Shown here in pieces: positions 3,831 through 33,767 of a stretch of DNA of 35,044 nucleotides. The stretch comes from an archaeon (lineage in GTDB: Archaea > Iainarchaeota > Iainarchaeia > Iainarchaeales > Iainarchaeaceae), in NCBI GenBank assembly GCA_035289485.1, contig DATDXA010000063.1, forward strand, positions 1-35,044. The letters are read 5' to 3'. The notes below the pieces were generated by a model that was given only the letters and a program-made list of their open reading frames with translations, was not told the DNA's origin and made no database searches. Every line of letters begins with the position of its first letter. Within the stretch, counting starts at the first letter, position 1. The translations under genes and the position numbers were made by a program.

Positions 3831-3832
3831 GG

Positions 3833-14908: not shown

Positions 14909-14914
14909 ATGGCA

Positions 14915-17900
14915 TCACCTGCTCCTCACATAATCCTCTGTGGTAACAAGGAAAAATTCTTCCGTGGAAAAGCCGGTGTTGCGCACATCAATCCGGTATT
15001 CACTGGTTCCTGGAGAAACAACAGATGGCTCGCTACTGACTCCGGATGCCTTGCTCCCGAGAGGGAAAGTGTTGGATGGAAATCCCTGTCCGGCCTGCCC
15101 GCTATAGCACTTGTTGAAGAACCTTACAATCTCGGAGCTCTTTATGAAATCGAGCTGGAAATCATTCTCTTTGGTGTCGGTTTGGGTTAGGACATCGTCA
15201 GCGAAAAGGCACACGCTTGGGTCGAAAATTTTAATGCGCGCTGTGGCGCCGTATGAAGTTGCGCCATGCTTTGCAGTAATGATTAGCGGGTGCAGGCCGA
15301 AAACATTCCGGGATTTTACTGCAAGAGTTGCGGAACTGTTGTTCTGCAGCGCAAATAAAGGATGCTCTGAAAAATCATACAAAGAGCCGTTCACGCTAAG
15401 GGTGATGTCGCTATCTGGGAGCTTCTCGATTTTTGTTATTTCAACGGCGGCGCCACAGCCCTCATTTAGGAGCCTGAATGAAACGGACCCGCCACGATTG
15501 TTTATCTCCGCAACAGCGTCATTGACGGCATACTTCGCGCCGGCAATTTCCGCCTTTAGGCACTGAAGGTCTGGAATGGCATCTGCCGCAGCGCCAACAG
15601 ATATTTTTCCGCTCGCGGTAATATATCCAAGCTTGGAAGCATTCACATCGAACTGCGTGCCTTCCTGGTAAGATGGCATGTTGAATGTGCAAAAGCCCCC
15701 CGAATCCGTGCTGCACTGCCTTATAGGGTCAGTTGCGCCTGCGGGATAAATTCCAACGAATGCCCCCTGTACCGAATTGCCATCTGAGCCGGTGGCTTTC
15801 ACAACAAGGCGATTGCTGCGGTTTGCCTCAAGAGCCTGCGGGGAAAAGGAAAGTGATATTGTTTTCAAATCGCCTATTGAAAAGAGCAGGCGCATGCTGT
15901 TGTTTTTCGCTTTCGCGCTGAGGTTTAGGTCGACCTCGATTTTCTGGGCAATGTTTTTTGCCGTGATATCAAAGCTGCCTGCCACGGGCGCCGGCTGGCT
16001 CTTTAGAAGAGTTCCCACAGGGAATGAGCTGCCAGAGAGCTGCAAAAAGTTATTCTGAAGGTCAGATGGCTTTGAGGCCAAAAGGCTCACATTATCAAAG
16101 CGCTCGCCTGAGAGGTTGGATATTTGGTAGCTCACCTTGTACACAACCCCTTTTACAAGCGAAGAGAGCGGGCCATTGTCCGAAAGCTTCTTGGGCACAG
16201 GGATTAGCACTTTTGCCGCGTCCTGTATCGTTGCCTCAATCAAAAACCCGCAATCGGTTGCAGAGCAAAATGGCTTGCTTAGCACCGCATCCCAAAGATA
16301 GAGGCTGTTTTCATCCGGCTTGAAAACAGTGCTTGCTGCACTTTGGCCCTTCACGCCAAAGCGCATCTGGATATGGGCGTTTTGGTCTGAGGGGGATGGC
16401 ATATCCAGCAGGTATGCTGCAACCGAAATCTCATAAACTCCCTGCGAAAGGGAGCTGAAATTTTTGGTGGCCATTTTTGCACCCGAAGAGGAAAAATCAA
16501 TCTGGCCTTGGCCGCACGAGGCGTAATTGTTCGCCGGGTTGAAACAAGGGTAATACGCCGCATCGCCTGCAAAGGAAGAGAACTTCTTTATTATGAAATT
16601 TGATTCAGATGCGTTGATTTCATTTTCAAGCCCCGAGCGCGCAACGAATGATGCCGAGTTTAGGTCCCCGAGCACAGTGAAATTGAACTTGAAAGTATAG
16701 AGCTTGTTTTCATCGACCTTTGAGGCCTTCTTTGCGGCAGAATCGAAAACGCCGGTGAGCTCGACATCAAATGGGGCAAGAGTATTGGGGCTGCGCTCCC
16801 TTATGAGCACAACTGCTATGCTCACTTTCGTGCCCGGGATTATTTCATAGGCAAGCGAAGTGTAATTGTAATAGCCCGGCTTTGTGACCACGATGTAGGG
16901 CTTTTTGTCCTGGCGAAGCTCCACGGAATCGGTTTTTCCGGAGGAGTTAGTTGGCTTTCTTGCAAGCACCTGGCCGTTAAGCGCGCTTTTGAAAGTGACA
17001 TTGGCATCCTTAACTGGCTTGCCATCCTCATCAAGAACGCTCGCCTCGGCAGTGCCGTTTGCAATTATCAGGGTTATCGGGAGCGGAAGTATTTGCCGGG
17101 CAAGCAGGGGCTTTGTCTCGGAGTTGGCGTCAAGCAGCACCCCGTTCACTGTTTTGCCTGCATTCGCATAATAATTGCCGGCCGGTAAGTTGGTGAAGAG
17201 AATATTGCCATCTCCATCGGTTGTGCCTGTAAGGACTGGGAAAACAAGCTCGGTTGAATAGAGAGCGACAGCGGCATTTGCGACCTTTGCCGCCGAATAA
17301 TCCGAGACAGTAACTTTTACATTTCCGGAAGTTCCGGACGGGGCTTTTGTGAGTTTTACTATTGTTGGCGAGGAGCTGGATGAAATTATGTTAGCGTCCT
17401 TTACAACCCTTAGGACATAATCCTTGTGCGAAGCTATCACCGAGTAGCGGTTGCCGTCAAGGTTTGCAAATTTCACAGTGCCATCAGATGCTGACTGCAT
17501 CGGGAACTGCGCAACATTCATGCGCACAAGTGTCGCCTCAACGCCTGAAATCGGACCGCCGCTATTTGCATCCACAAACTTGAGATAAATCATTTTTGAG
17601 GAATCGGCCTTTTGCAACAGCACCGCAATTTCGACTGTGGAGCTGCCTGAGAGTTCTGCAGCGCCTATTGAAAACTCGTTGCTATAACCGACACTGTACC
17701 CTAAATAATCGGGAGCAACTGCCTGCAGAATATAAGTTCCCGCAGGAACAGCAAAGAGCATTGAAGCCCCTGTCGCATCCGTAACAGAGCCCTGAAGTAC
17801 CGTGATGTCGCCGCGGCGAAGCGTAATTGATGCACCCTCAATAGGAGAACCCGTGGCCTCATCCATTACAGTTGCAAGCACCGATGCAGAGGAGTTCTTT

Positions 17901-18643
17901 GCTTTTAGTATTACAATGACCGCCCCTTCCTGCAAGGCGGCGCTTACCTGCCTTTTCTCCTCCTCAAAGCCTGGGACATTGATTGTTCCCGTGAGAGTTC
18001 CGCAATCGCTCTGCACGGAAACCGCCTGCCGCGGGCCATTGCGCGTGAAGCCCGGCGGCTCGAGCCCTTGCGAGCTGCACGAGAATGACATGGTGACTTC
18101 ATCTGAAGCTGAAAGAAGGACCCTGCTCTCATCGCGCAGCTCAAAATTGATTGTCTTGACCGTGACAGCGGGCTTTGCCGGCATTAGAGTGATTTCATAT
18201 TCCCCGCCAGAAGCAATGTCTATTTTGTCCGAAAATTCGGCATAATCCTTGGCCTTAATGCGCACATCAACGCCCGTGCCAAAAAGCCGCGTCTGCAGCT
18301 CGCCAAAAGAATCAGTGGTTGCAGATTCGCCTTTGCCATCAAGCAAGAAATCCACTATGATGCCGGAAAGTGCCGTGCCTTCGCTGTCTGATACAATGAA
18401 CTTTGCCGCGCTGCCGCCTGAAAAGAATGATATCAGGATTTCGAGAGGATTGCCGCCGAGCACGAGGAAAAAAAGGAGCAACAAAAACAGAACCCCAATA
18501 ATCATGAGCAGGATGAATGAGGGGAAAACGGCGTCGATTGGGTCGACAATGCTATAAATCGGGAATTTCTCCTCGAATTTATCCAGGACTTCATAATATT
18601 TGTCCTCGAATTTGTAGTAAATTTCCTTAACCTTTTCAAGCAT
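14915..18643 (-). CDS. Large membrane-anchored surface protein with tandem carboxypeptidase-regulatory-like (Cna-B/Ig-like) domains
   Basis: N-terminal TM helix; repeated V.D..G.P..GA.V...TD..G...F...PAG.Y pattern; 1242 aa. Confidence 0.88.
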   Translation of the reverse strand: MLEKVKEIYYKFEDKYYEVLDKFEEKFPIYSIVDPIDAVFPSFILLMIIGVLFLLLLFFLVLGGNPLEILISFFSGGSAAKFIVSDSEGTALSGIIVDFLLDGKGESATTDSFGELQTRLFGTGVDVRIKAKDYAEFSDKIDIASGGEYEITLMPAKPAVTVKTINFELRDESRVLLSASDEVTMSFSCSSQGLEPPGFTRNGPRQAVSVQSDCGTLTGTINVPGFEEEKRQVSAALQEGAVIVILKAKNSSASVLATVMDEATGSPIEGASITLRRGDITVLQGSVTDATGASMLFAVPAGTYILQAVAPDYLGYSVGYSNEFSIGAAELSGSSTVEIAVLLQKADSSKMIYLKFVDANSGGPISGVEATLVRMNVAQFPMQSASDGTVKFANLDGNRYSVIASHKDYVLRVVKDANIISSSSSPTIVKLTKAPSGTSGNVKVTVSDYSAAKVANAAVALYSTELVFPVLTGTTDGDGNILFTNLPAGNYYANAGKTVNGVLLDANSETKPLLARQILPLPITLIIANGTAEASVLDEDGKPVKDANVTFKSALNGQVLARKPTNSSGKTDSVELRQDKKPYIVVTKPGYYNYTSLAYEIIPGTKVSIAVVLIRERSPNTLAPFDVELTGVFDSAAKKASKVDENKLYTFKFNFTVLGDLNSASFVARSGLENEINASESNFIIKKFSSFAGDAAYYPCFNPANNYASCGQGQIDFSSSGAKMATKNFSSLSQGVYEISVAAYLLDMPSPSDQNAHIQMRFGVKGQSAASTVFKPDENSLYLWDAVLSKPFCSATDCGFLIEATIQDAAKVLIPVPKKLSDNGPLSSLVKGVVYKVSYQISNLSGERFDNVSLLASKPSDLQNNFLQLSGSSFPVGTLLKSQPAPVAGSFDITAKNIAQKIEVDLNLSAKAKNNSMRLLFSIGDLKTISLSFSPQALEANRSNRLVVKATGSDGNSVQGAFVGIYPAGATDPIRQCSTDSGGFCTFNMPSYQEGTQFDVNASKLGYITASGKISVGAAADAIPDLQCLKAEIAGAKYAVNDAVAEINNRGGSVSFRLLNEGCGAAVEITKIEKLPDSDITLSVNGSLYDFSEHPLFALQNNSSATLAVKSRNVFGLHPLIITAKHGATSYGATARIKIFDPSVCLFADDVLTQTDTKENDFQLDFIKSSEIVRFFNKCYSGQAGQGFPSNTFPLGSKASGVSSEPSVVSPGTSEYRIDVRNTGFSTEEFFLVTTEDYVRSR

Positions 18644-19373: not shown

Positions 19374-20459
19374 ATGAAAACACTCTCAAAGCTGCTTGTT
19401 CGCGCGCGCGACATAAAGCCAACGCTCCCAAATTTCAGGGTGCGCGGGGCTCTCAACCCGGGCGCTGTGCGCCTTCCAAACGGAAAAATAGAGCTCTTCG
19501 CGCGCATTGCAGAAACACCAAAGCACGGGGAGAAATACTTTCTTGCTCCGCGCTTTGAGGGCACGAAAAAAACCCGAATTGTGATTGAAAAAATCCCGCG
19601 CCAGATGGGCAAAATCTCCCCTGATTATTTTCTCATGAATGAGCACATCTACAGGCTCCCCACAATTTCGCACATTCGAAAAATCCTGCTTGATAAAAGC
19701 GGCATGAATGTGCAGCGCATAAGCCAGAAGCCGGATTTTTTGGGAAGGACTGAGGATGGGGACTTTGGCGTTGAGGACCCGAGAATCACCGAGTTCGCTG
19801 GCGAAGGGAGATATGGGATGACCTATGTTTCGGTTTCCATGTCTAGCGGGGTTTCAACTTCACTTGCCATCTCAAAGGACCTCATTAACTGGCAGCGCAA
19901 GGGGATAATTTTTCGCCAGCAGAACAAGGACGTTGTAATTTATCCGGAAAAAATCGATGGATACTATGTTGCAATGCACCGTCCAGAAGGCACAATGATA
20001 TTTGATAAGCCAAGCATCTGGCTTTCATACTCAAAAGACCTCACTTTTTGGGGAAAAGACAAACCCATAATGCAGCCGCGGGAGAATTCATGGGACAGCC
20101 TGCGAATCGGTTCTGGCACGGTCCCGCTAAGGCTCGATGAGGGCTGGCTCGTGATTTACCACGGAGTGAAGCTGCAGGATCCCGATGACGATGAGTCGAA
20201 AAAGGTTTACAGCGCGGGCGCGGCGCTCTTTGACATCAAAAACCCCGCGCGCCTGCTAGCAATGAGCCCGAAAAACGAGCCGCTCTTAGAGCCCGAACAT
20301 GATTTTGAGCGCAATGGATTTGTAAACAACGTCGTGTTCCCAACTGCCGCAATCCCCGACAAGGACGGGCGCAATCTTCTCGTCTACTGCGGCGCTTCGG
20401 ATTCAAATATTGAAGTGCGCAGGCTCAAAATCAGTTCGATACTCAGCTCTCTTGTGTGA
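19374..20459 (+). CDS. Glycoside hydrolase family 130 (mannoside phosphorylase/hydrolase-like)
   Basis: LNPGA, GVEDPRIT, NKDVVIYPEKI, HRP, GWLVIYHGV, NNVVFPTA, YCGASD. Confidence 0.9.
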   Translation: MKTLSKLLVRARDIKPTLPNFRVRGALNPGAVRLPNGKIELFARIAETPKHGEKYFLAPRFEGTKKTRIVIEKIPRQMGKISPDYFLMNEHIYRLPTISHIRKILLDKSGMNVQRISQKPDFLGRTEDGDFGVEDPRITEFAGEGRYGMTYVSVSMSSGVSTSLAISKDLINWQRKGIIFRQQNKDVVIYPEKIDGYYVAMHRPEGTMIFDKPSIWLSYSKDLTFWGKDKPIMQPRENSWDSLRIGSGTVPLRLDEGWLVIYHGVKLQDPDDDESKKVYSAGAALFDIKNPARLLAMSPKNEPLLEPEHDFERNGFVNNVVFPTAAIPDKDGRNLLVYCGASDSNIEVRRLKISSILSSLV

Positions 20460-20613: not shown

Positions 20614-22797
20614 ATGTCTGGAAAGAAAATACTTTTTCTATCAAGTTTCCCGCCGCGCGAGTGCGGCATTGCGACATTCACAAAGGACCTCACCGAATCG
20701 GTGCGCAAAAAATTTGGAAACAGCGTCGCCCCCAAGATCATAGCAATCAATGATTCGGGCTCGAGTGTTTACAAGTACGACAGAAAAGTTGAGCTAAGCA
20801 TTACAGAAGAGAGCCTTGAGAGCTATGAGGCCGCGGCGCGCAAAATAAACAAGATGAAGAGCGTCGAAATAGTGAACATCCAGCACGAATTTGGCCTCTT
20901 TGGCGGAGAATACGGCGAATACCTGCTCAGATTCCTCGAACTTCTGAACAAAAAAATAGTCACAACACTCCATACAGTGCTCGAAGAGCCTCCTGAAAAA
21001 ATGAAATGGGTTGTGCAGCAGATTTTCGAATTAAGCGACACCGTTGTCGTGATGACAGAGGCGGCAAAGAAAATTCTTGCCGAGAGGTATGCTATCGAGC
21101 CCGAAAAAATTTCAGTAATTCCGCACGGAGTTCCCAGTATCGAGTTTGCAGGGCTTAAGAGCGCGAGAAGAAAGTACGGGATAAAGGAAAAAAATGTCCT
21201 GCTCACTTTCGGCCTTCTGAGCAGGGGAAAGGCAATCGAGAACGTGATTGAGGCGATGCCTGCAATTGTCAAGAGGCACCCCGACACCGTGTACCTTCTT
21301 GTCGGTGAAACACACCCGCGCGTGAGAGAGCATGAGGGCGAGAGCTATAGGCAAGAACTTAAGGCGCTAGCTGAATTGCACAATGTAGGGAAGCACGTAA
21401 AATTCCTTGACAGGTTTCTAACGCAGCAGGAAATCATTGAATGCCTTCGCATGTCAACTATTTATCTCGCGCCCTCACTTGATCCGCGGCAGATTTGCAG
21501 CGGCACTGTTAGCTATGCAATGGGCGCGGGAAAGGCCATAATCTCGAGCAAGAACAAGTACAATGCAGAAGTGCTCTCCTCAAAGCGCGGGATTGTAATA
21601 GGCCAAAATGACCCCAAAAAATTCGCAAAGGCAGCAATCAGCCTACTATCAGATGCACAGAAAAAAGAGGAGCTTGAAAAGAACGCATTCGAGTTCAGCA
21701 GGAAAATGGCCTGGCCAAATGTCGCAACCCAATACTACAATGAATTCTCAGGGCTCGCGCAAATCACGAACGGCTCATTTAGCAGGCTTCCGCGGATTAG
21801 CTTCCGGCATTTTTCCGAAATGACGGATGATTTTGGGATGATACAGTTTGCAAAGTATGCCGAACCAGATATTTCAAGCGGCTACACCCTTGATGACAAT
21901 GCAAGGGCGCTTGTTGTGGCGGCAAACGGGTATGAGCGCTTTGGCACAAAAACAATGCTCTCATTTGCGGATACGTTCCTCGCATTTATAGAAAAGTGCC
22001 AGATGCAGAATGGCGAGTTCCACAACATATTGGATGGCAACCGTGAATTCATCGATGACACAGGCAGTGAGGACAGCTACGGAAGGGCTGTGCGCGCGCT
22101 TGGAAAAACCCTAAGAAGCGGCCTTCCTGAAGATTACCGCCTGAGGGCAAAAAAAATGCTTGAGAAAACGGTTTCGGGCGGGCTTGAACTTGATTCACCG
22201 CGCGCACAGGCAGATACGCTTATCGGGCTTTCAAATTCAGGAGAATACCTAGCTCAGGATGCGACATTTGAAATGAAGGGTCGGATTCTTGATTCGTTTA
22301 TTTCCAAATACAACGAAGTGAGCGATGGGGAATGGAACTGGTTTGAGAACTATCTCACATACGGGAACGCGAAAATACCCGAAGCACTATTTGAAGCGCA
22401 GGCGCAGGATAAAACAGGCATTGTTGAAAAAATCGCAAAAGAATCCATGGACTTTCTCACAAAAACCCTATTCATCAACGGAAAGCTCGTTCCGATAGGT
22501 CAGGAAAAATGGTTTGTCAAAAAAGAGGAACGCTCAATGTATGACCAGCAGCCGATAGAGGCCGCGGGGATGACGAGCGCATACCTCAAGGCCTTTGAAA
22601 AAACAAATGACACTGGGTATAAGCAGAAGGCTCGCGATTCCTTTGACTGGTTCCTTGGCAAGAACTCACAGAACCAGATGGTGTATGATGAGGCCACAGG
22701 CGGCTGCTTTGACGGGCTCACAAAAACAGGCGTGAACGCAAACGAGGGGGCTGAATCAACTGTTTCCTATTTGCTTGCAAGGCTTTCGATTTTGTGA
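20614..22797 (+). CDS. GT4 glycosyltransferase fused to a C-terminal (alpha/alpha)6 glycosidase-like domain
   Basis: N-half: PPRECGIATF, IQHEFGLFGG, TFGLLSRGK, SGTVSYAMG. C-half: GYTLDDNARAL, EDSYGR, DQQPIE, NEGAEST. Confidence 0.9.
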   Translation: MSGKKILFLSSFPPRECGIATFTKDLTESVRKKFGNSVAPKIIAINDSGSSVYKYDRKVELSITEESLESYEAAARKINKMKSVEIVNIQHEFGLFGGEYGEYLLRFLELLNKKIVTTLHTVLEEPPEKMKWVVQQIFELSDTVVVMTEAAKKILAERYAIEPEKISVIPHGVPSIEFAGLKSARRKYGIKEKNVLLTFGLLSRGKAIENVIEAMPAIVKRHPDTVYLLVGETHPRVREHEGESYRQELKALAELHNVGKHVKFLDRFLTQQEIIECLRMSTIYLAPSLDPRQICSGTVSYAMGAGKAIISSKNKYNAEVLSSKRGIVIGQNDPKKFAKAAISLLSDAQKKEELEKNAFEFSRKMAWPNVATQYYNEFSGLAQITNGSFSRLPRISFRHFSEMTDDFGMIQFAKYAEPDISSGYTLDDNARALVVAANGYERFGTKTMLSFADTFLAFIEKCQMQNGEFHNILDGNREFIDDTGSEDSYGRAVRALGKTLRSGLPEDYRLRAKKMLEKTVSGGLELDSPRAQADTLIGLSNSGEYLAQDATFEMKGRILDSFISKYNEVSDGEWNWFENYLTYGNAKIPEALFEAQAQDKTGIVEKIAKESMDFLTKTLFINGKLVPIGQEKWFVKKEERSMYDQQPIEAAGMTSAYLKAFEKTNDTGYKQKARDSFDWFLGKNSQNQMVYDEATGGCFDGLTKTGVNANEGAESTVSYLLARLSIL

Positions 22798-23018: not shown

Positions 23019-24668
23019 TTAGCTTTTTTTCAGTTTCCGCGCCGCAGCAGCATCAACTATTATCGCCGAATTAGGGTGCCTGCGCAAAACCGATGCGGGC
23101 GCTCTCTCTGAAACTTTTCCATTGAATGATTTTGCAATCGCCCGCGCCTTTTTCGCGTCCGTAGCCGCCAAAATGATTATTTTCGCGCCCATTATGGTTT
23201 TCATCCCCAATGTGAGCGCGCGGGAAGGCTTTGCGCCCCTGAACCTTGCCTTTCTCGCGCTTAGGGCGCCTCTTGGGATTTCAATTACGCGCGTGCGCGA
23301 AGAGAATGATGAACCAGGCTCGTTGAATGCGATGTGCGCGTTCTCCCCAAGCCCTAAAAGAACAACTGTGAGCCCTTTCCTTTTCACTATTGATTCGATT
23401 CTTCTGCACTCTACCGCCAAATTTTTCGCATGAACATTGAAAAGGAATACATTTTCCTTTTTGAAATTGACCTTATCGATGAAGTTCTTTTTGAGCGAAT
23501 GCGCGAAACTGTCGTGCGAATCCGAAAGGCCCAAATACTCATCAAGCTGCACAAAAGAGGCGCGCGAAAAATCAGCTTCGCCCCTGCGGAAAGCTGATAC
23601 AAGCGCGCGGTAAATTGGAATGGGGGTTTTTCCTGCGGCAAGGGAAATCACAGCATTCGGCATTGCGTTAATGAGAAATGAAATCCTTTGCACGGCCTCT
23701 TTTGCAACACCCGCACGGTTGCGTTTCACTGTGATTTCAGTGAGATTTTGCGAGCGCAAAAAATCCTTCAAATCGCCTTTGAGCGTAGGGCAATACTCAC
23801 GCGAAGACACTTTGCGCGCTGCCGCGAAGTTCCCGCAGCGAAGGCAATTTAGCGCGCTGAATGAATTTGCAAGGCCGTAAACAAACCCCGCGTTGAAGAA
23901 ATCCCCGGCGCCAGTGGCATTAAGGGCACGCACACTCAGGGCAGGAGAATGGATGGGTTTTGTGCCCATAAGCGGCAAATAATATTCAGAACCCCCGCTG
24001 CCGCGCTTTAGCACCACATGATTTGCGCCCATTGAAAATAGCCTTCGGATTCCCGAAGCGTTTGATTTTGCGCGGGTGATGGCGCGCAGCTCCACCTCAT
24101 TTAGCATGAAAATATCGACGTTTTTTAAAAAATCCCGGATTTTCCAATTCCCGTACTCATCATAGCAGCAATCAAATGCCACAATGGCCTTTTTGCGCTT
24201 TATTGCCTTAAGCAGGCGCAAAAACCCCTTGCGCATTTTGGGCAGATGGAAAAACCCGCCGAAAAAAACGATGTCACCTGCGGATACCTGCGGGAGAAGG
24301 CGCCTTGCAACAAGCGCTGAATTGAGTTCAAGCAGGCACCCCTTGCTTGAAAGTATGGCGCGCTCGCCGTCACTGCGCACGAAAATGTTTGAAACGCCGT
24401 TTGGAAGGCCGTATTTTTGCAGCAAAGGCCTTATGCGCAGCCGCTTGAGCCCGCGCATGATGAACGGGGTGAAAACATCAGAGCCGATTGCGCTCACAAG
24501 GCGCACATCAAGCCCAAGAGAGGCAGACGCAGCGGCGAAATTGGCAGCATTGCCGCCCAGAGTGCAGTGGAATCCTTCGGCGTGCGCTTCCGTGCCGAAC
24601 TGCGCGAAGCGAGAGATGTGCGTGAAGAGGTCAACATTCACATCCCCAACAGCAAAAATCTTCTTCAT
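23019..24668 (-). CDS. Fusion of a PfkB/ribokinase-family sugar kinase and glucosamine-6-phosphate deaminase (NagB-like)
   Basis: N-domain: GDVNVD, GGNAANFA, NEVE, NATGAGDFFNAGF. C-domain: LAAGKTP, LDEY, GLGENAHIAFNEPG, ALTLGMKTI, PASVLRRH. One continuous frame; ATG 24668. Confidence 0.9.
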   Translation of the reverse strand: MKKIFAVGDVNVDLFTHISRFAQFGTEAHAEGFHCTLGGNAANFAAASASLGLDVRLVSAIGSDVFTPFIMRGLKRLRIRPLLQKYGLPNGVSNIFVRSDGERAILSSKGCLLELNSALVARRLLPQVSAGDIVFFGGFFHLPKMRKGFLRLLKAIKRKKAIVAFDCCYDEYGNWKIRDFLKNVDIFMLNEVELRAITRAKSNASGIRRLFSMGANHVVLKRGSGGSEYYLPLMGTKPIHSPALSVRALNATGAGDFFNAGFVYGLANSFSALNCLRCGNFAAARKVSSREYCPTLKGDLKDFLRSQNLTEITVKRNRAGVAKEAVQRISFLINAMPNAVISLAAGKTPIPIYRALVSAFRRGEADFSRASFVQLDEYLGLSDSHDSFAHSLKKNFIDKVNFKKENVFLFNVHAKNLAVECRRIESIVKRKGLTVVLLGLGENAHIAFNEPGSSFSSRTRVIEIPRGALSARKARFRGAKPSRALTLGMKTIMGAKIIILAATDAKKARAIAKSFNGKVSERAPASVLRRHPNSAIIVDAAAARKLKKS

Positions 24669-24748
24669 CAGCACCACAAATGCGCTCAATGGCGCGCAAG
24701 TATTGCGCAAACATCATATTTATTCTTATCTAAGCATTGATATCATGC

Positions 24749-25330
24749 ATGAAAAAGGCGCTTGTGATAGTCGCGCACCCTGATGATGAGACGATATGGA
24801 TGGGCGGCAAGATTTTGCGCGAAAAGGGCTGGGAGTGGACAGTGCTCTCGCTTTGCCGCAAGGACGACATTGACCGCAAGCCCAAGTTCTTCTCCGTGAT
24901 GAAAGAATTAAATGTGCGCGGATTCATCTCCGACCTCGAAGACGACCATCCTGAGCAGAAGCTCGCTGATTTGGAAGAGGTTGTGCGGCGCATCGAGCCT
25001 GTTGCGCATGACAAGAAGTTTGATGCAGTGTTCACGCACGGCGCGAACGGAGAGTACGGCCACAATAGGCACATTGAAACGCACAATGCAGTGAATCGCA
25101 TGATTGAAGGCGGGCTTCTTGCGTGCAAGGAGCTTTTCGTGTTCGATTATGTGCGAAAGGAAAACCCCTTCAGGTGCGAGATAAACCCAAAAGCGCCGCT
25201 CAAGCTTGAGCTCACACGCGCCGAGCATGAAAGGAAAAAATATTTAATCGCCAAAGTTTATGGTTTTTCGGAAAATAGCTTTGAGTGCATCAGCTGCTGC
25301 GCAACTGAAGGATTCAGGAAAGTGTTTTGA
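24749..25330 (+). CDS. PIG-L/LmbE family N-acetylhexosamine deacetylase
   Basis: VAHPDDE metal motif and THG..GEYGHNRH. Confidence 0.88.
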   Translation: MKKALVIVAHPDDETIWMGGKILREKGWEWTVLSLCRKDDIDRKPKFFSVMKELNVRGFISDLEDDHPEQKLADLEEVVRRIEPVAHDKKFDAVFTHGANGEYGHNRHIETHNAVNRMIEGGLLACKELFVFDYVRKENPFRCEINPKAPLKLELTRAEHERKKYLIAKVYGFSENSFECISCCATEGFRKVF

Positions 25331-26584
25331 ATGATGCCCAACGGAAAAAACGGGAACGGCCACCAAAACGGAAAAAACGGACCTGAAAGAAATGGAAACG
25401 GAAAAAATGTCAATGGAAAAAACGGCAACGGCAGGAACAACAAATTCACCTCAATAATCCTATACCCCTATCCCCCTGAGCTTGATGGGATAAGCCTTCA
25501 GGGAGAGTACCTCTACCGCGGCCTGCGGGAAAATGGATACACGACAAAGCCCTGCAACCGCCGCCCGGGCTTTGAAAAGGACTTTTTGTTTAAGAGCTAC
25601 AAGCCCGATGTCGCAATAGGAATCGGATTTTGGGGCGACACGCCTGATTTGGTGATAAGCCCGCAGGAAAATGGCATTACGCCCGTGCCTTGGCTCAATG
25701 CCGATGGATGGGTTGCAAACTACCATGAAACCCTCGAAAAGCTCCCGTTGATTTTTGTCACAAGCAACTGGGTTAAGGAAACCTACCGCAGAGACGGCGT
25801 TTTCAACAAGAATATGTTTCCAATGCCAATTGGCATGGATACTGAACAAATGCGCCCTATTTCAAAATACGACCAGCGCGTAAAGAGCATGCGTGAGGCA
25901 CTTGGGGTAAAGCCTGATGAGAAAATGATACTCACAATCGGCGGAGATACCACGAGCAAGGGATTTCAGGAAGTATTAAGGGCCCTTGGCAAGATTGACG
26001 GCGAGTTTTCGAAATGGAAATATGTCGGCAAATCATGGGAGAACCGCCAGCCAACATACCACTACAAGGCCGAGGCTGAAATCATAAAGGAATTCGGCTT
26101 TCGCAAAAAGGTGAAGTACATAGACGGGCCCATGTCTCGCGAAACCATGCGCATACTCCTAAGCGCCGCGGATGTTTATGCCGCCCCCAGCAGGATAGAG
26201 GGCTTTGGCATGATACAGGTAGAGGCGATGTCATGCGGAACTCCCGTGCTTTCAGTTGATGCGATGGGAGTAAAGGACACCGTGGTGCACAGGGAAACTG
26301 GGTTCCTTGCAAAGGTCGGGGAGAGAGTTGATTTGGAGCAGGAGTGGGTGTACAAGGACATGGGCTTTGAGAAGAAGAAAATAATAAAATTCGACAAGCC
26401 CAAAACGTTTGGTGTGCGCGCGGATATCGATGACCTTGCGCTGCACCTCAAGAGGATGCTGCAGGATGATGCGCTCATGGAAAAGATGGGGAAGAATGCG
26501 CGCGCCCACGCCGTGAAGAATTTCGATTACCGCAAGACTTCGCTTGACATGGCGAGAATTATTGAGCAGAAGCTTGATTTGTGA
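25331..26584 (+). CDS. GT4 glycosyltransferase with N-terminal NGK/NG repeat tract
   Basis: SKGFQE and PSRIEGFGMIQVEAMSCGTPV (E-x7-E motif); starts immediately after the deacetylase stop. Confidence 0.9.
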   Translation: MMPNGKNGNGHQNGKNGPERNGNGKNVNGKNGNGRNNKFTSIILYPYPPELDGISLQGEYLYRGLRENGYTTKPCNRRPGFEKDFLFKSYKPDVAIGIGFWGDTPDLVISPQENGITPVPWLNADGWVANYHETLEKLPLIFVTSNWVKETYRRDGVFNKNMFPMPIGMDTEQMRPISKYDQRVKSMREALGVKPDEKMILTIGGDTTSKGFQEVLRALGKIDGEFSKWKYVGKSWENRQPTYHYKAEAEIIKEFGFRKKVKYIDGPMSRETMRILLSAADVYAAPSRIEGFGMIQVEAMSCGTPVLSVDAMGVKDTVVHRETGFLAKVGERVDLEQEWVYKDMGFEKKKIIKFDKPKTFGVRADIDDLALHLKRMLQDDALMEKMGKNARAHAVKNFDYRKTSLDMARIIEQKLDL

Positions 26585-26596
26585 AAATCTTTATGT

Positions 26597-27724
26597 TCAA
26601 TCGATTTTGAGAAGATTCTTTTTTTGCTTCACGCTCTCGTAAGCCGCAAGGAAAGCGCCCGCGCTCCATGCCTGGTGCCTGCTCCCGCTTGCCTTTTCAG
26701 TCACGGGGTGAATCCATTCGTTGAAATCCCATTCCCAATCAACGTGCGAACCAAGCTTGTTTGCGCGCGCAAGAGACTCGAGCGCCTTTTTTGCATCTCC
26801 CATCCACCCGATTTCAACAAGCGCGCAGACATAAAAGCCGCCGATGAAAGGCCAGATGCCGCCATTGAGATAGGAATCCTCTTCGCCTGCAAGCGACGCC
26901 TCATAATAATCCTTCCACTCAGGAGTGCCTTTTTTTATTGCGGGGTATATTGCGCGCATCGGGTAGGGATTTGCAATCCCTCGGCGCTGCACAAAACCAA
27001 GAATCGATGCCGCCTGCTTTTCTGACGCGAGCCCGAAAACTATTGCGAGCATATTTCCAAGTGAATCAAACCATGTTTCTTTCTCGCTAAATTCGCCGTG
27101 GTCTTTCCAGTGCCATGGCAGGTAATAGCCCAAGGATTCATCCCAGAGATAATTGTCAATCGCCTTTTTCACTTTCACAAGCGGCTTTTTGTTTCCGGTT
27201 GCCTTGAGCGCGGCATAATACAGGGCCTGTGTGTTGAGGGTGTGCCCGTACTTGTGCGGGAAGCAATCCATCCAGTCGCTTGTGGGGAGCTGCTCTGGAA
27301 GCAAATCATCGCCAGCGTCCTGATACTGGACCCATTTGAGCGCCGCGGCAATGTTTTTTTTGTGCTTTTTCCACAGCGCCGAGCCGAACTTTTTTTTGTA
27401 GAAATGCTCTCCGAGAATGAACCAGAGGCTCGAATCGATTGTTGCGTATGTTGCGGGCTTGTCAATTGAGCCTATGAAATCCACGGCATTTGGTATTTGC
27501 CCGAGCGCGGTCTGTTTTTTTGCAAGAGTACTGAGGCTGCGCGCGAAAACTCCCTTGAACGCGGGCGTGTGCATCACAGCCCCAATCATTGAAACATTCG
27601 AATCGCGTGACCACACCTGTGTGTATCCCTTCAGGCCACCGGAGGCATACATGCCGTATTTTGTCTGGCAGGCGCGCAGGGCTTCTATTGCCTTTCCAGA
27701 ACCCACTTCAATAAGTTCACTCAT
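26597..27724 (-). CDS. (alpha/alpha)6 glycoside hydrolase, GH100 (neutral invertase)/amylo-alpha-1,6-glucosidase-like
   Basis: YTQVWSRDS, IDSSLWF, YLNGGIWPF, FNEW, QAWSAGAFL. Confidence 0.8.
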   Translation of the reverse strand: MSELIEVGSGKAIEALRACQTKYGMYASGGLKGYTQVWSRDSNVSMIGAVMHTPAFKGVFARSLSTLAKKQTALGQIPNAVDFIGSIDKPATYATIDSSLWFILGEHFYKKKFGSALWKKHKKNIAAALKWVQYQDAGDDLLPEQLPTSDWMDCFPHKYGHTLNTQALYYAALKATGNKKPLVKVKKAIDNYLWDESLGYYLPWHWKDHGEFSEKETWFDSLGNMLAIVFGLASEKQAASILGFVQRRGIANPYPMRAIYPAIKKGTPEWKDYYEASLAGEEDSYLNGGIWPFIGGFYVCALVEIGWMGDAKKALESLARANKLGSHVDWEWDFNEWIHPVTEKASGSRHQAWSAGAFLAAYESVKQKKNLLKID

Positions 27725-27768
27725 GACAGGCAACTAAATGGATTTTGAGGAATAAATAGGTTTGCGTA

Positions 27769-28257
27769 CTACAATGCCCTTTTTTTCAGGAGAAGGCTGG
27801 AACGCCACGGGTTAGTTGAGGAGGTGCGCCTTGCCATGCGCTCCTTTTCTTTAAGACGCTTTAAATCGAATGAAATCCCGGCAAATTCATTCACAGGTTT
27901 GAAGCCGACAGTACTTGTTTGCCTAGGGGTTGGTTTAGGGTATGGGGCTGCTTTTGTTTTTTGTTTATTTGCGGTCCATGTTTTGCTCAGCCCTGGAAGA
28001 TGGTTATGCAAGTATTGTTCAGTATAAATACCCACAAACAATTTGGCTACCAGTTCAGGTGTCACACCCGACTTTTTTTGCATTTCTGGAGAGCACAATT
28101 CTTTTGCCTTTCGAAACGCACGCTGGGCATCTCGAAAAATATCCCCATCTATAATTCGGCGGCTGCCATTATTTCGTGCAATAATTTCTTTTATGGCCTT
28201 CTCAAGCGAGGCACGGCCAGTTATTTGCCCGCTGATTGGAATTGGATTCTCAGGCAT
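27769..28257 (-). CDS. Orphan basic protein
   Basis: ATG after GAGGTTG; Lys/Arg-rich with a basic C-terminal tail; no family recognised. Confidence 0.7.
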   Translation of the reverse strand: MPENPIPISGQITGRASLEKAIKEIIARNNGSRRIIDGDIFRDAQRAFRKAKELCSPEMQKKSGVTPELVAKLFVGIYTEQYLHNHLPGLSKTWTANKQKTKAAPYPKPTPRQTSTVGFKPVNEFAGISFDLKRLKEKERMARRTSSTNPWRSSLLLKKRAL

Positions 28258-28470
28258 CAGGCAACCTCTGCATTCTTAACCGGAGCCTGCCCGCTCAGGC
28301 TGATGAATATCTCCCCAAAAAATAAATGCTGTTATTATATGGTATAAGCGTTAAATTTTCAAGACTGCTAATTAGCATATTCATAATGTAAATATATAAT
28401 TGCAAACTGATATATATAATTTGCATATAAACCGCCCCAATTATATGCGGGTGATATATATGAAGTCGAT

Positions 28471-28572
28471 ATGACACACAAAGAGCCGTCAGGCCGCCAT
28501 TCTGAAAAAAAATATTGGCGAAATGTTGGGAAAAAAATAGATGCTGAAATTCGCAAAGCAATTGAAAGGTGA
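28471..28572 (+). CDS. Small ORF (33 aa, MTHKEPSGRHSEKKYWRNVGKKIDAEIRKAIER)
   Basis: Below the ORF-track cutoff; its stop lies inside the AGGTGA RBS of the next gene. Confidence 0.4.
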   Translation: MTHKEPSGRHSEKKYWRNVGKKIDAEIRKAIER

Positions 28573-28579
28573 TTTACAA

Positions 28580-29209
28580 ATGACAGATGATTGGATAACT
28601 GAAGAAGAAAAGGTAGTTACTTCAATCAGCATCCCAAAAGAATTCCATTCCGAACTAAAAGAGTTTTCAGAAAGTTTGGGATTACCCATGAGCGAAGTCA
28701 TTGTACGCTATTTGAAAATTGCTTTTAATGTGGAACAAAGTGGGGTGCCAAATGACCTTGCAGAAGTTACCGCTTCAAACACCAAAATGGAACGTTATTT
28801 GAAAAAAATCGTAGACGAACAGGAAAATGTTAAGAGAATTGCTGATGAGCGAAGGGAAGCCTTGCGAAAAATGGCTGAAAAGCATGACAAACAAAGAGTC
28901 AAAGAGTTGGCTGAAAAAGACAAACTGCGCAAAATGCAAAAACGCTTTATCCTCAAAAATAAAGCAACAGGCATAAAGCTAGAGGATGGTGAACTTGGAA
29001 GGGAAACTCTGATAAGCCCTGAACACAAATACTGGCCTATTGTTTGTAATGGAATACGGCTTGAACTAGAAGAACTGTTATCTGATGACTCATTGGATTG
29101 GAAACAAATTGAGAAAAGGAAGGACATTTTTGAAGGGAAAAGTCAAATGGGCGGGATTCTTACAAAGTCTTTCAAAAAGGAAAAAGAGGTGAAACAAAAT
29201 GAGAAATAG
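28580..29209 (+). CDS. Ribbon-helix-helix (CopG-like) domain protein with coiled coil
   Basis: VVTSISIPKEFHSELKEFSESLGLPMSEVIVRYL fits the RHH beta-alpha-alpha pattern; ATG 28580 after AGGTGA. Confidence 0.72.
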   Translation: MTDDWITEEEKVVTSISIPKEFHSELKEFSESLGLPMSEVIVRYLKIAFNVEQSGVPNDLAEVTASNTKMERYLKKIVDEQENVKRIADERREALRKMAEKHDKQRVKELAEKDKLRKMQKRFILKNKATGIKLEDGELGRETLISPEHKYWPIVCNGIRLELEELLSDDSLDWKQIEKRKDIFEGKSQMGGILTKSFKKEKEVKQNEK

Positions 29210-29495
29210 AGCAATGGAACTGGGTTCAATTTGGGAATTCGGTGCAATTGTGGATGGGAAAACTAGATATTTTTCCAAAAATCCGCAGAGTAAATATAGC
29301 GAGGCAGAATTAATTGAAGATATTTTACGCAGAATTGAAAGTTTAGAAGGAAAAATAGCTTCAACACCTGGGTCGTCAGAAACTGCGAGGAGAAACAAAC
29401 TTAAGGTTGCCTGGGAGCGAGCTGACAGATATGGTAGCGCAAAAGCGTTAGAAATGGCTTACGAACGAAGCCTTAGAGCTTACCAAAGGATTTGA
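29199..29495 (+). CDS. Hypothetical protein (98 aa)
   Basis: GAGGTGA RBS; overlaps the upstream stop. Confidence 0.7.
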   Translation: MRNRAMELGSIWEFGAIVDGKTRYFSKNPQSKYSEAELIEDILRRIESLEGKIASTPGSSETARRNKLKVAWERADRYGSAKALEMAYERSLRAYQRI

Positions 29496-29592
29496 TGCTG
29501 GCATATGGCACCTCGATAAAACTCAGGAAAGGCAGGGAGGTTTGCTCTCCTATGGTTTCCTCCCTGCTTTACTTGTTGCAAATGGTGGTTGA

Positions 29593-30075
29593 ATGGGAGA
29601 ATTTCCGCATAAGTTTTCAAAAGAAGAATCAATCCGTGGCGGTTCAAGTCGCAGCTTGGCAAAGAAATTATCCTCCCCTATAAATCGGATTACAGACAGA
29701 AACGTGCTGCTAAATACAATTGATGCGAAAATCGGTGAGAGTGTGCAGGACAAGGCTGCGTTGAAAAATCTCTTGCTGCTCGCAGGCTCTAACGAGGGCA
29801 GGCATTTGATTTCTGAAATGATTGACGTTCTTATAAATTTGAAAAATAGTACGGGCGCGGATGATTTCGAGAGAAATAATATTTACTTGCAGCGTTTGAT
29901 GGATTTCAAAAGAAGCATTTGGGGCGACAAGCTGCAAATTATATCGCAAAAAGAAATAGAGGACAAAAAAGAATATTTTCGGCGGATTGATGCATTTCAA
30001 AGAGCTGGAGTGCAGGACGATGGATACAGGGAAAGGGTCGATAAAATACTTAATGAAAAACTGGAGGCTGATTAA
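29593..30075 (+). CDS. Hypothetical helical protein, possibly terminase-small-subunit-like
   Basis: GGTGG RBS supports the gene. The N-terminus FSKEESIRGGSSRSLAKK recalls KGG-type basic N-termini of some viral TerS proteins; function is speculative. Confidence 0.6.
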   Translation: MGEFPHKFSKEESIRGGSSRSLAKKLSSPINRITDRNVLLNTIDAKIGESVQDKAALKNLLLLAGSNEGRHLISEMIDVLINLKNSTGADDFERNNIYLQRLMDFKRSIWGDKLQIISQKEIEDKKEYFRRIDAFQRAGVQDDGYRERVDKILNEKLEAD

Positions 30076-30078
30076 AGC

Positions 30079-30165
30079 ATGAACAAAATTGAGAAATTGA
30101 AGGCGGAATTAAGCGAAATTAAGCAAATCATTTATTCGTTGTGCGAAGACAAACTAAACCATTGA
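30079..30165 (+). CDS. Small ORF (28 aa, MNKIEKLKAELSEIKQIIYSLCEDKLNH)
   Basis: GGAGG upstream; amphipathic helix; starts 3 nt after the previous stop. Confidence 0.45.
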   Translation: MNKIEKLKAELSEIKQIIYSLCEDKLNH

Positions 30166-30176
30166 GGCGAGTTGAA

Positions 30177-30365
30177 TTGAAGAAAATCTATCACGTCATA
30201 TTCGAGGACAAGGAAAAATGTTTGAACGTGGAAATACCGCAAAACACAAAAGCACATCTACTTTTGACCAACGAAACAGGAGAAACACGGCTGGACTTTG
30301 ATTGTGTAAGGCAATTCTTCCTAGGAAAACCACAGGACACCATTGGAAATTCTAATACAAAGTAA
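30177..30365 (+). CDS. Small hypothetical protein (~62 aa)
   Basis: TTG start after GAGGCG; last gene of the + strand run. Confidence 0.5.
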   Translation: MKKIYHVIFEDKEKCLNVEIPQNTKAHLLLTNETGETRLDFDCVRQFFLGKPQDTIGNSNTK

Positions 30366-30451
30366 AGGGCATTAAGAATCCCTTATTGGGGTTAATATTT
30401 CTCAATGGAACAATAAACAATCATGGTGTTTAGGGGAAATGTTATAGTCTT

Positions 30452-32474: not shown

Positions 32475-32477
32475 TTT

Positions 32478-33665: not shown

Positions 33666-33683
33666 TATTAACTTTTTTATAAA

Positions 33684-33759: not shown

Positions 33760-33767
33760 GTTTTGCT

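What the first reader, a model, noticed from the sequence alone, without database searches (positions are those of the whole stretch)
23019..25330. PfkB kinase-NagB fusion divergent from a PIG-L deacetylase: candidate deacetylate-first amino-sugar pathway
Seen: a single-frame kinase+deaminase with catalytic motifs retained (GAGD; DEY; HIAFNEP), 80 nt head-to-head with a PIG-L gene. Established: bacteria use NagK or PTS, then NagA and NagB; Thermococcus deacetylates first with the PIG-L-family Dac, then uses an ADP-dependent kinase and GlmD. Inference: GlcNAc to GlcN (PIG-L), then GlcN-6P and Fru-6P on one polypeptide, a compact route for scavenging amino sugars. I do not know this domain architecture from characterised proteins.
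Basis: partly seen in the sequence, partly recalled or inferred. Interest (0 to 1): 0.7.

Follow-up and report, generated by a model that had tools for sequence, protein, structure and literature searches.

The report
Fused amino-sugar kinase and deaminase gene
A tiny uncultured archaeon makes one protein that joins a sugar kinase to a glucosamine-6-phosphate deaminase, and this gene belongs to a conserved, undescribed sugar gene cluster that probably builds, trims and recycles a glucosamine-containing sugar compound.

Summary
Window 23019-24710 (-) is one open frame: a PfkB kinase joined to a NagB-type deaminase, all catalytic motifs intact, 80 nt head-to-head with a PIG-L gene. Contigs of three other runs cross the domain junction without indel or stop, and about 35 database proteins share the architecture, so it is no assembly artefact.

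Kinase and NagB are functionally coupled: both split forms occur in relatives, and each half stays in the cluster. The genome has GlmS but no NagA, ROK, BadF/G or ADP-dependent kinase was found. That fits a catabolic route from glucosamine to fructose-6-P.

The constant partner of PIG-L is not the kinase. It is the GT4 glycosyltransferase directly downstream (28 of 28 relatives, 60 of 61 metagenome loci), usually with a six-hairpin glycoside hydrolase. So PIG-L more likely deacetylates a GlcNAc-glycoside made by that transferase, as MshA/MshB do, than free GlcNAc. The hydrolase would then release GlcN for the fused enzyme. The aglycone, the kinase substrate and the order of steps are inferred, not shown.

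Six full-text searches found no paper on it. This scan noted the same fusion twice before, in other genomes. It is a new variant of known enzymes, of moderate interest.

The parts
23019..24668 (-). Fusion gene (549 aa from ATG 24668; the frame is open up to TTG 24710): PfkB sugar kinase + NagB deaminase
23799..24668 (-). PfkB kinase domain. Carries GDVNVD, GGNAAN, NEVE (the NxxE motif) and TGAGD. The family also has invariant D166/D170 and near-invariant H141/W175 (A2 numbering), which the aligned ribokinases and YdjH lack
23709..23798 (-). Inter-domain linker, modelled as a helix. The whole-protein model is confident (pLDDT 92.9, pTM 0.91)
23079..23708 (-). NagB (monomeric, B. subtilis-like) glucosamine-6-phosphate deaminase domain with AAGKTP, LDEY, HIAFNEP and an invariant Lys (K510 in P0001)
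24669..24748 (.). 80-nt divergent promoter region. A TATA-like TATTTATTC lies at 24717-24725, 23 nt before the PIG-L ATG, and recurs in most orthologous loci. A 6-3-6 palindrome GCGCAAGTATTGCGC lies at 24694-24708
24749..25330 (+). Small (193 aa) PIG-L/LmbE-family deacetylase with invariant AHPDDE and GEYGHxRH (Arg replaces the Asp of MshB's HPDH)
25331..26584 (+). GT4 glycosyltransferase 'GT4b'. Its start abuts the PIG-L stop. It is the constant partner of PIG-L
26597..27733 (-). Six-hairpin glycoside hydrolase (Pfam GDE_C, GH100, MGH1-like; best solved relatives are GH100 alkaline invertases), convergent on GT4b
19374..20459 (+). GH130 phosphorylase of the beta-1,2-mannoside type (best solved relative Lin0857, E 3e-49). 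Accessory module, present in 15 of 20 fusion loci
20614..22797 (+). 727-aa GT4 glycosyltransferase 'GT4a' with a C-terminal domain of about 340 aa and no Pfam family. The architecture is widespread in bacteria. Accessory module

Best explanation
The gene encodes a bifunctional cytoplasmic enzyme. Its N-terminal ATP-dependent PfkB kinase most likely phosphorylates glucosamine at O6. Its C-terminal monomeric-type NagB converts the GlcN-6-P to fructose-6-P and ammonium. It is the recycling arm of a conserved module. GT4b would transfer GlcNAc (UDP-GlcNAc can be made: GlmS, GlmM and a split GlmU are present) to an unknown acceptor, giving an alpha-glycoside. The co-translated PIG-L would deacetylate that glycoside, as MshB and BshB do after MshA and BshA. 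The six-hairpin hydrolase would release GlcN. The fused enzyme would then return it to central metabolism, with Fru-6-P entering through the transaldolase/FSA-type enzymes. Shown: the architecture, intact motifs, synteny, co-inheritance, both split forms, and the gene content of the genome. Inferred: every substrate, the direction of flux, and the order of deacetylation and phosphorylation.
For: (1) Domains and motifs are intact. The model is confident and its NagB half superposes on B. subtilis NagB (TM 0.93 by target).
(2) The genes stay together. In 20 of 20 fusion loci the order is fusion <-> PIG-L > GT4b, with the GH next in 19 and 5 kb away in 1.
(3) Both split forms exist. The kinase alone stays in the cluster in 6 genomes. 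In 4 of them it lies directly upstream of the GH on the same strand, about 70-90 nt away; in the other 2 it sits head-to-head with PIG-L. NagB alone stays in the cluster in 2 genomes.
(4) The genes are co-inherited. In 215 genomes of the phylum the fusion query hits 54, PIG-L 48 and the GH 47; 47 of the 48 PIG-L genomes also hit the fusion query.
(5) PIG-L > GT4b adjacency holds in 60 of 61 metagenome loci.
(6) In a second, distant lineage the module lies among glycolysis genes and includes a standalone NagB that passes the TIGR00502 cut-off (239.3 and 262.3 against 236.9), with a ROK kinase nearby.
(7) In this genome GlmS, GlmM-like and GlmU halves are present. NagA, ROK, BadF/G and ADP-PFK/GK were not found in a 90% complete genome.
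(8) The glycolytic-operon PfkB of the second lineage is the orthologue of another paralogue of this genome (C31, next to GAPDH; 33-39% identity, 134-176 bits). It is not the orthologue of the fused kinase (24-28% identity, 37-68 bits).
(9) In metagenomes NagB is also fused to NagA, to a PGM-type mutase and to kinases of other families. These are mostly partners that could supply GlcN-6-P.
(10) The only solved sequence relative of this PIG-L is MshB, a glycoside deacetylase that follows a GT4 enzyme. The Zn-ligand and catalytic positions align.
Against: No substrate is shown. The kinase's nearest solved relatives are ribokinases and E. coli YdjH at 21-26% identity, which says nothing about amino sugars. 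The NagB domain scores below the NCBIfam cut-offs (177.3 against 236.9 for TIGR00502). In this sub-lineage it has lost the T-R-x-A-N stretch that more distant members keep. Nothing identifies GT4b's donor or acceptor. Its best solved match is a sucrose-phosphate synthase, and only over the donor-binding half. The invariant Arg residues of PIG-L would equally suit a sugar phosphate such as GlcNAc-6-P or GlcNAc-1-P. Foldseek ranks MshB, diacetylchitobiose deacetylases and BshB about equally (TM by query 0.62-0.75). NagB was detected in only 9 of the 23 well-flanked metagenome loci. No fate for Fru-6-P through PGI or FBP aldolase was found here. The genome is only 90% complete.
Confidence: 0.45

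Rival explanations
1. One reading: PIG-L deacetylates free GlcNAc (or chitobiose) to GlcN, and the fused enzyme then makes GlcN-6-P and Fru-6-P. GT4b and the hydrolase would be functionally separate neighbours.
For: The head-to-head arrangement shares an 80-nt promoter region and is conserved in 20 of 20 loci. There is a Thermococcus precedent for a PIG-L-family deacetylase acting before a kinase. No NagA was found. Diacetylchitobiose deacetylases are among the fold matches.
Against: PIG-L is tied to GT4b (28 of 28 and 60 of 61 loci), with or without a kinase or NagB nearby. No GH18 or GH20 was found. The GH130 is of the beta-1,2-mannoside type, so it gives no obvious source of free GlcNAc. 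The sequence match to the diacetylchitobiose deacetylases is not significant (E 0.56).
Confidence: 0.2
2. Phosphorylate first: the kinase is a GlcNAc 6-kinase, PIG-L replaces NagA as GlcNAc-6-P deacetylase, and NagB finishes. A variant without a kinase: GT4b acts as a phosphorylase, PIG-L works on GlcNAc-1-P, and a mutase gives GlcN-6-P.
For: NagA was not found. PIG-L has invariant basic residues (R37, R43, R107) that could hold a phosphate. NagB-LmbE fusion proteins occur in the same phylum and widely elsewhere (NF002557 hit). Many loci have NagB but no kinase.
Against: The fused domains would then catalyse steps 1 and 3, not consecutive ones. No PIG-L enzyme acting on a sugar phosphate is known to me (recalled, not searched). 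The GT4b link is left unexplained in the first version. GT4 phosphorylases are rare (recalled).
Confidence: 0.13
3. The kinase acts on the fructose side. Either it is a fructokinase or a 6-phosphofructokinase that takes NagB's product onward, or it is a fructokinase that feeds NagB running in the aminating, biosynthetic direction.
For: The PfkB family includes fructokinases and PFK-B. The hydrolase's best solved relatives are invertases and GT4b's is a sucrose-phosphate synthase. No classical PFK or ADP-PFK was found. Some family members carry a weak ketohexokinase-family tag, and a Khk-NagB fusion exists.
Against: A different paralogue (C31, next to GAPDH) is the orthologue of the kinase that sits in PFK-aldolase-TIM operons of the second lineage. 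No FBP aldolase was found here. GlmS is present, so an aminating NagB is not needed. The 1-PFK/PfkB subfamily models score weakly (37.9 bits).
Confidence: 0.12

Closest known systems
Monomeric NagB of Bacillus subtilis (PDB 2bkv/2bkx) and Streptococcus mutans (2ri0/2ri1)
   Same: The C-terminal domain aligns over its whole length (E 2e-39; Foldseek TM 0.93 by target, 34% identity). It has the G-x-T-P, DEY and H-x-x-F-N-E-P motifs.
   Different: Here it is fused behind a PfkB kinase. It scores below the NCBIfam nagB cut-off.
Thermococcus kodakarensis chitin pathway (deacetylase TK1764, exo-beta-glucosaminidase TK1754, ADP-dependent Glc/GlcN kinase, deaminase TK1755)
   Same: A PIG-L-family deacetylase acts before the kinase, and GlcN is phosphorylated and then deaminated (passages read in PMC6579819, and 10.1101/482810).
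   Different: No chitinase (GH18) or GH20 was found and no ADP-dependent kinase. The deaminase is NagB-type, whereas TK1755 is, as I recall, a SIS/GlmS-like enzyme. The kinase is an ATP-type PfkB and is fused. PIG-L is coupled to a GT4 transferase.
MshA/MshB and BshA/BshB (GT4 GlcNAc-transferase followed by a PIG-L-family deacetylase)
   Same: A GT4 gene and a PIG-L gene form a fixed pair. MshB is the only solved sequence relative of this PIG-L. BshA and MshA are among GT4b's better matches.
   Different: All scores are far below the family cut-offs. No Cys-ligase partner was looked for. The pair travels with a glycoside hydrolase and NagB, which points to turnover of the product. Arg replaces MshB Asp146.
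Long NagB-LmbE proteins (NCBIfam NF002557 / PRK02122 and shorter forms of about 485 aa)
   Same: NagB is coupled to a PIG-L-family domain. Such proteins occur in the same phylum, some in genomes that also have the kinase-NagB fusion.
   Different: The fusion partner and the order differ. The LmbE domain there (SPHPDD, HPTH) is a different PIG-L subfamily: tblastn with this window's PIG-L did not hit those loci.
E. coli YdjH and ribokinases (PfkB family)
   Same: They are the best solved relatives of the kinase domain (family profile against YdjH 121.7 bits; ribokinases TM about 0.8 by target). They share the GG, NxxE and GAGD motifs.
   Different: Identity is 21-26%. Ribokinase Lys43 (E. coli numbering, recalled) is Asn here. 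The family-specific FD-x-x-x-DEYGKW stretch is absent from them.

Membership tests
PfkB carbohydrate kinase family (PF00294) | Profile score over the curated cut-off | tested here: met
   132.6 bits against 25.8, residues 15-304
PfkB carbohydrate kinase family (PF00294) | N-terminal GG motif, NxxE motif and C-terminal (D/N)TxGAGD with the catalytic Asp (motif definitions recalled) | tested here: met
   GGNAAN at 52-57, NEVE at 204-207, NATGAGD with D270. Invariant or nearly so in 27-33 orthologues
Glucosamine 6-kinase (EC 2.7.1.8), as an activity | Phosphorylates GlcN; homology to a characterised GlcN kinase | not testable with these tools
   The characterised GlcN kinases listed in the passages read are an ASKHA-type enzyme, an ADP-dependent ribokinase-like enzyme and a protein-kinase-fold enzyme. 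None is an ATP-type PfkB. The assignment here rests on the fusion and on gene context only
NagB glucosamine-6-phosphate deaminase (TIGR00502 equivalog) | Score over the equivalog cut-off (236.9 bits) | tested here: not met
   177.3 bits; NF001684 gives 202.1 against 326. The 6-phosphogluconolactonase model scores much lower (60 bits), and the true Pgl of this genome is a separate gene
NagB glucosamine-6-phosphate deaminase (TIGR00502 equivalog) | Catalytic Asp (DEY), His and Glu (H-x-x-F-N-E-P) and phosphate-binding Lys (roles recalled from E. coli NagB) | tested here: met
   D379, H448, E453 and K510 (P0001 numbering) are invariant in 33 sequences. Aligned with 2bkv. TM 0.93 by target
PIG-L / LmbE deacetylase family (PF02585) | Profile score over the cut-off, and the fold | tested here: met
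   45.4 bits against 28.2. The model (pLDDT 96.3) matches MshB, diacetylchitobiose deacetylases, BshB and TT1542 at E 1e-8 to 1e-7
PIG-L / LmbE deacetylase family (PF02585) | Zn-binding and catalytic motifs AHPDD and H-P-D-H (MshB H13, D15, D16, Y142, H144, D146, H147; numbering recalled) | tested here: inconclusive
   H10, D12, D13, Y103, H105 and H108 are invariant, but the Asp146 position is an invariant Arg (R107)
Thermococcus-type deacetylate-first chitin pathway | Chitinase, exo-beta-glucosaminidase, ADP-dependent kinase, SIS-type deaminase | tested here: not met
   GH18 and GH20 not found. ADP_PFK_GK not found. The deaminase is NagB-type. The GH35-type glucosaminidase was not searched
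MshA/MshB-like GT4 + PIG-L biosynthetic pair | Fixed pairing of a GT4 transferase with a PIG-L deacetylase | tested here: met
   28 of 28 related loci and 60 of 61 metagenome loci
MshA/MshB-like GT4 + PIG-L biosynthetic pair | UDP-GlcNAc donor; the deacetylase acts on the transferase's product | not testable with these tools
   Only weak similarity to BshA and MshA (65.8 and 61.4 bits against cut-offs 273.7 and 462.5)

The most novel reading that the evidence does not exclude
Iainarchaeota and other uncultured small-genome lineages make and turn over a so far unknown cytoplasmic glucosamine glycoside, either a compatible solute or a carbon-and-nitrogen reserve. It might be a sucrose- or trehalose-like non-reducing GlcN disaccharide, or a GlcN-primed beta-1,2-mannoside. 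GT4b and PIG-L would be its synthase and deacetylase, and the six-hairpin hydrolase and GH130 its breakdown enzymes. The fused protein would be the first ATP-dependent PfkB-family glucosamine kinase, channelling GlcN straight into NagB.
Probability: 0.25. Interest if true: 0.75.

Novelty: new variant of a known kind. Interest (0 to 1): 0.5.

Why it matters
If the kinase is a glucosamine kinase, it would add a new protein family to the few known GlcN kinases. It would also show a two-step amino-sugar entry into central metabolism on one polypeptide, in organisms with about 1 Mb of genome. The wider point concerns the module PIG-L + GT4 + six-hairpin hydrolase (+ GH130, + a 727-aa GT4, + NagB). 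It is conserved in 47 of 215 genomes of this phylum and in dozens of metagenome contigs, in one lineage embedded among glycolysis genes. Six full-text searches of the held paper library found no description of it. It probably marks an unrecognised glucosamine-containing metabolite in DPANN-type archaea, which would bear on how these symbionts store or exchange carbon and nitrogen.

Tried and rejected
- The scan of genome contigs with the fusion alignment was swamped by ordinary NagB and PfkB genes. Of the 80 loci kept, only L006 held the cluster, and it is the same contig as G069:C70.
- A search for longer, fused forms of this PIG-L found none among 541 candidates. The tool itself calls this weak evidence.
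- Six full-text searches found nothing on the fusion or on a PfkB glucosamine kinase. A seventh gave only the GlcN-kinase background paper. No supplements were opened.
- No RNA holder was listed for the stretch, so nothing can be said about expression.
- Foldseek on the fusion and on PIG-L confirmed the folds but did not discriminate substrates. Model coordinates could not be read, so pocket residues were judged from alignments only.
- The 6-3-6 palindrome in the promoter region is single in the window, within chance expectation for the loose pattern, and not kept as a palindrome in orthologous loci. It was rejected as a demonstrated operator.
- The search for class I aldolase PF00274 is uninformative, because the control rang in no genome.
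- The idea that GH130 supplies GlcNAc from Man-beta-1,4-GlcNAc was set aside. Its best relatives are beta-1,2-mannoside phosphorylases (171 bits against 90 for UhgbMP).
- The idea that the fused kinase is the glycolytic PFK was weakened by the paralogue comparison.
- My gene calls in related loci are crude: longest non-overlapping ORFs. PIG-L was masked in 6 of 20 loci by spurious longer ORFs until checked with tblastn.
Full report
**What is in the window**

The window is contig C63 of a 1.16-Mb genome in 64 contigs, 90% complete. Earlier notes of this scan and the names on database relatives place it in the DPANN phylum Iainarchaeota/Diapherotrites.

At 23019-24710 (-) lies one open frame of 563 aa. 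Pfam finds PfkB at residues 15-304 (132.6 bits) and Glucosamine_iso at 335-544 (73.7 bits). The most plausible start is ATG 24668 (MKKIF...), where the orthologues begin.

| Motif | Residues |
|---|---|
| GGNAAN | 52-57 |
| NEVE | 204-207 |
| GAGD | 267-270 |
| LDEY | 389-392 |
| HIAFNEP | 459-465 |

The PIG-L gene starts at ATG 24749, exactly 80 nt from the fusion's ATG and on the other strand. Its stop codon directly abuts the ATG of a GT4 glycosyltransferase, here called GT4b, at 25331.

**The fusion is real**

- Contigs of three runs that are not flagged as possible sources of this DNA (X3, X4, X5) bridge the inter-domain linker with no gap and no stop. X3 and X5 carry three substitutions in the HIAFNEP region: two synonymous and one Gly-to-Cys.
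- In the 5.8-billion-protein collection, 35 of the first 36 hits carry both Pfam domains in proteins of 477-569 aa at 39-66% identity. Where named, they are labelled archaeon or Diapherotrites and called 'PfkB family carbohydrate kinase', 'glucosamine-6-phosphate deaminase' or '6-phosphogluconolactonase'.
- An exhaustive HMMER search of 1.84 billion 50%-identity representatives lists only about seven clusters that match both domains. After them come kinase-only and ordinary NagB proteins. The architecture is therefore rare and confined to one lineage.
- An AlphaFold2 model built on 33 sequences is confident as a whole (pLDDT 92.9, pTM 0.91). Its C-terminal half matches monomeric B. subtilis NagB (TM 0.93 by target). 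Its N-terminal half matches ribokinases, YdjH and sulfofructose kinase.

**The conserved gene cluster**

I fetched 20 fusion loci from related genomes, out of the 30 near-full-length matches that one search listed.

- All 20 have the order fusion <-> PIG-L > GT4b. A six-hairpin glycoside hydrolase (Pfam GDE_C, GH100, MGH1-like) follows convergently in 19 and lies 5 kb away in 1.
- Fifteen also have a GH130 phosphorylase and a 727-aa GT4 (GT4a) on the other side.
- Across 215 genomes of the phylum the fusion query hits 54, PIG-L 48 and the hydrolase 47. Of the 48 PIG-L genomes, 47 also hit the fusion query. The 7 extra fusion hits are weak matches to a single domain.

**Split forms**

- In six genomes the kinase stands alone (about 300 aa) but stays in the cluster. 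In four of them it lies directly upstream of the hydrolase on the same strand.
- In four of these six genomes (the four whose second match I fetched), NagB sits elsewhere as a NagB-LmbE protein of about 485 aa.
- In two other genomes NagB alone stays in the cluster and the kinase lies elsewhere.

Each half is thus tied to the cluster on its own account. This is the strongest evidence available here that the two domains and the cluster work together.

**The wider picture from metagenomes**

A metagenome scan with the PIG-L alignment returned 80 loci at 30-72% identity.

- PIG-L is followed on the same strand by GT4b in 60 of the 61 loci that have 600 nt or more downstream. The exception is the most distant locus.
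- Among the 23 loci with 4 kb or more on both sides, the counts are: hydrolase 22, GH130 16, GT4a 15, NagB 9, fusion-type kinase 2.
- In seven loci a standalone NagB gene lies directly upstream of PIG-L on the same strand; in an eighth (L173) it lies 280 nt upstream.
- In a second lineage of seven loci the module sits among glycolysis genes. On one side lie a GHMP kinase, a ROK kinase, a PMI-like cupin, TIM, a DeoC/LacD aldolase and a PfkB kinase. On the other lie the hydrolase, NagB, PGK and GAPDH. The two NagB proteins I tested there pass the curated nagB cut-off.

So the module feeds GlcN-6-P into glycolysis in several lineages. The constant core, however, is PIG-L + GT4b + hydrolase, not PIG-L + kinase.

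**What the kinase is not**

The PfkB kinase in those PFK-aldolase-TIM operons is the orthologue of another paralogue of this genome (C31, beside GAPDH): 33-39% identity, 134-176 bits. It matches the fused kinase at only 24-28% identity and 37-68 bits. The fused kinase therefore belongs to a separate subfamily, and reading it as a phosphofructokinase is unlikely.

This subfamily keeps the sugar-binding Asp and the catalytic machinery of ribokinases. It has Asn where ribokinases have Lys43 (E. coli numbering, recalled), and a family-specific FD-x-x-x-DEYGKW stretch. I could not inspect the pocket itself.

**Genome context**

| Status | Genes or families |
|---|---|
| Present | GlmS, two PGM/GlmM-like genes, both halves of a split GlmU |
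| Present | Two transaldolase/FSA-family genes |
| Present | An oxidative pentose-phosphate operon in this window |
| Not found | NagA |
| Not found | ROK, BadF/G, ADP-dependent kinases |
| Not found | Classical PFK |
| Not found | PGI of two types |
| Not found | Three aldolase types |
| Not found | GH18, GH20 |

These absences are in a 90% complete genome and are not proof.

UDP-GlcNAc can be made. NagB is not needed for biosynthesis. No other candidate hexosamine kinase was found in the searches run, which covered the ROK, BadF/G and ADP-dependent kinase families but not GHMP, hexokinase or glucokinase families.

**PIG-L**

It is a small (193 aa), divergent member of its family. The invariant residues are AHPDDE, R37, D40, D42, R43 and GEYGHxRH.

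Its only solved sequence relative is MshB (E 0.003). The zinc and catalytic positions align, but an invariant Arg replaces MshB's Asp146. The fold search matches MshB, the Pyrococcus diacetylchitobiose deacetylases, BshB and TT1542 about equally.

The basic residues suggest an anionic substrate: an acidic or phosphorylated aglycone, or a sugar phosphate.

**Reading**

The most economical model is a cycle:

1. GT4b makes an alpha-GlcNAc glycoside.
2. PIG-L deacetylates it.
3. The hydrolase releases GlcN.
4. The fused kinase-NagB converts GlcN to Fru-6-P.

In lineages without this kinase, a ROK kinase could do the phosphorylation.

The best-hit pattern (sucrose-phosphate synthase, invertase, PfkB) allows a sucrose-like GlcN disaccharide as the boldest guess. 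That pattern rests on weak, partial matches.

**Comparison with what is known**

The passages I read list three characterised microbial GlcN kinases: an ASKHA-type enzyme from Vibrio, an ADP-dependent ribokinase-like enzyme from Thermococcus, and a protein-kinase-fold enzyme from Streptacidiphilus (10.1101/482810). They also describe the Thermococcus pathway genes TK1765, TK1764, TK1754 and TK1755 (PMC6579819). None is an ATP-type PfkB kinase, and none is fused to NagB.

NagB itself is a frequent fusion partner in metagenomes: with NagA, a PGM-type mutase, a GHMP kinase, a DAGK/YegS-like kinase, a Khk-type PfkB kinase, PIG-L and an AraC regulator.

This scan noted the same fusion before in two other genomes (e1-939473, e1-3172324), with the same general reading. 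New here are the rule that PIG-L pairs with GT4b, the two split forms, the paralogue test against PFK, and the lineage in which the module is embedded among glycolysis genes.

Noticed in passing
window 159-4315: An operon for the oxidative pentose-phosphate pathway: 6PGDH-like (159-1085), 6-phosphogluconolactonase (1742-2416, passes TIGR01198) and G6PDH (2379-3830). Two ORFs without any family (1036-1707, 3827-4315) are interleaved. No PGI was found in the genome, so one of the unknowns might supply that step.
   Followed up: partly
window 10897-18643: Two very large minus-strand ORFs. One is 1126 aa with no Pfam family. The other is 1242 aa with Ig-like and CarboxypepD_reg domains. Homologues of the 1242-aa protein flank the sugar cluster in 9 of the 21 loci compared, the window included.
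   Followed up: no
window 28000-35044: G+C drops from about 0.49 to 0.32-0.40. None of the six ORFs scanned there has a Pfam family. This may be a foreign or mobile island.
   Followed up: no
window 25331-25445: GT4b of this genome has an Asn/Gly/Lys-rich low-complexity N-terminal extension of about 38 residues. The orthologues lack it: their alignments start at residue 39-41.
   Followed up: no
window 24694-24725: The divergent promoter region holds a 6-3-6 palindrome GCGCAAGTATTGCGC next to the TATA-like box. A half-site-like TATTG(C/G)G(C)AA recurs about 10 nt upstream of the TATA box in six close relatives. It may be the fusion gene's own promoter element or a regulator site.
   Followed up: partly
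window 23315-23328: Contigs of runs X3 and X5 carry a strain variant inside the NagB active-site motif: NEPG becomes NEPC, with two synonymous changes beside it.
   Followed up: yes
L006 (JAFCBY010000005.1), the same contig as G069:C70: A public contig titled 'Candidatus Falkowbacteria bacterium' has the same length and the same matches as a contig of a genome placed in the window's own archaeal order. The record's name looks wrong.
   Followed up: partly
L146 5027-8899 (G151:C45): Where the fusion-type kinase stands alone in G151, it is convergent on an operon of GT2, a HAD phosphatase (S6PP-like) and a GH15-like hydrolase. That looks like a two-step glycoside synthase/phosphatase plus hydrolase set.
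   Followed up: no
L150 6870-10256 (G214:C19): A PFK-like PfkB and a fusion-type PfkB kinase lie in tandem, followed by an amino-acid permease, in a class-level relative whose genome has no match to the cluster's PIG-L or hydrolase.
   Followed up: no
L159, L161, L162, L182, L195, L203, L221: A second lineage has a glycolysis supercluster (GHMP kinase, ROK, PMI-like cupin, SDR, TIM, DeoC/LacD aldolase, PfkB | PIG-L, GT4b, GH130, hydrolase, NagB, PGK, GAPDH) with the sugar module inserted in its middle.
   Followed up: partly
P0103, P0131, P0135, P0141, P0186, P0208: Other NagB fusions occur in metagenomes: NagB-GHMP kinase, Khk-NagB, NagB-PGM, NagA-NagB, DAGK/YegS-NagB and AraC-NagB.
   Followed up: partly
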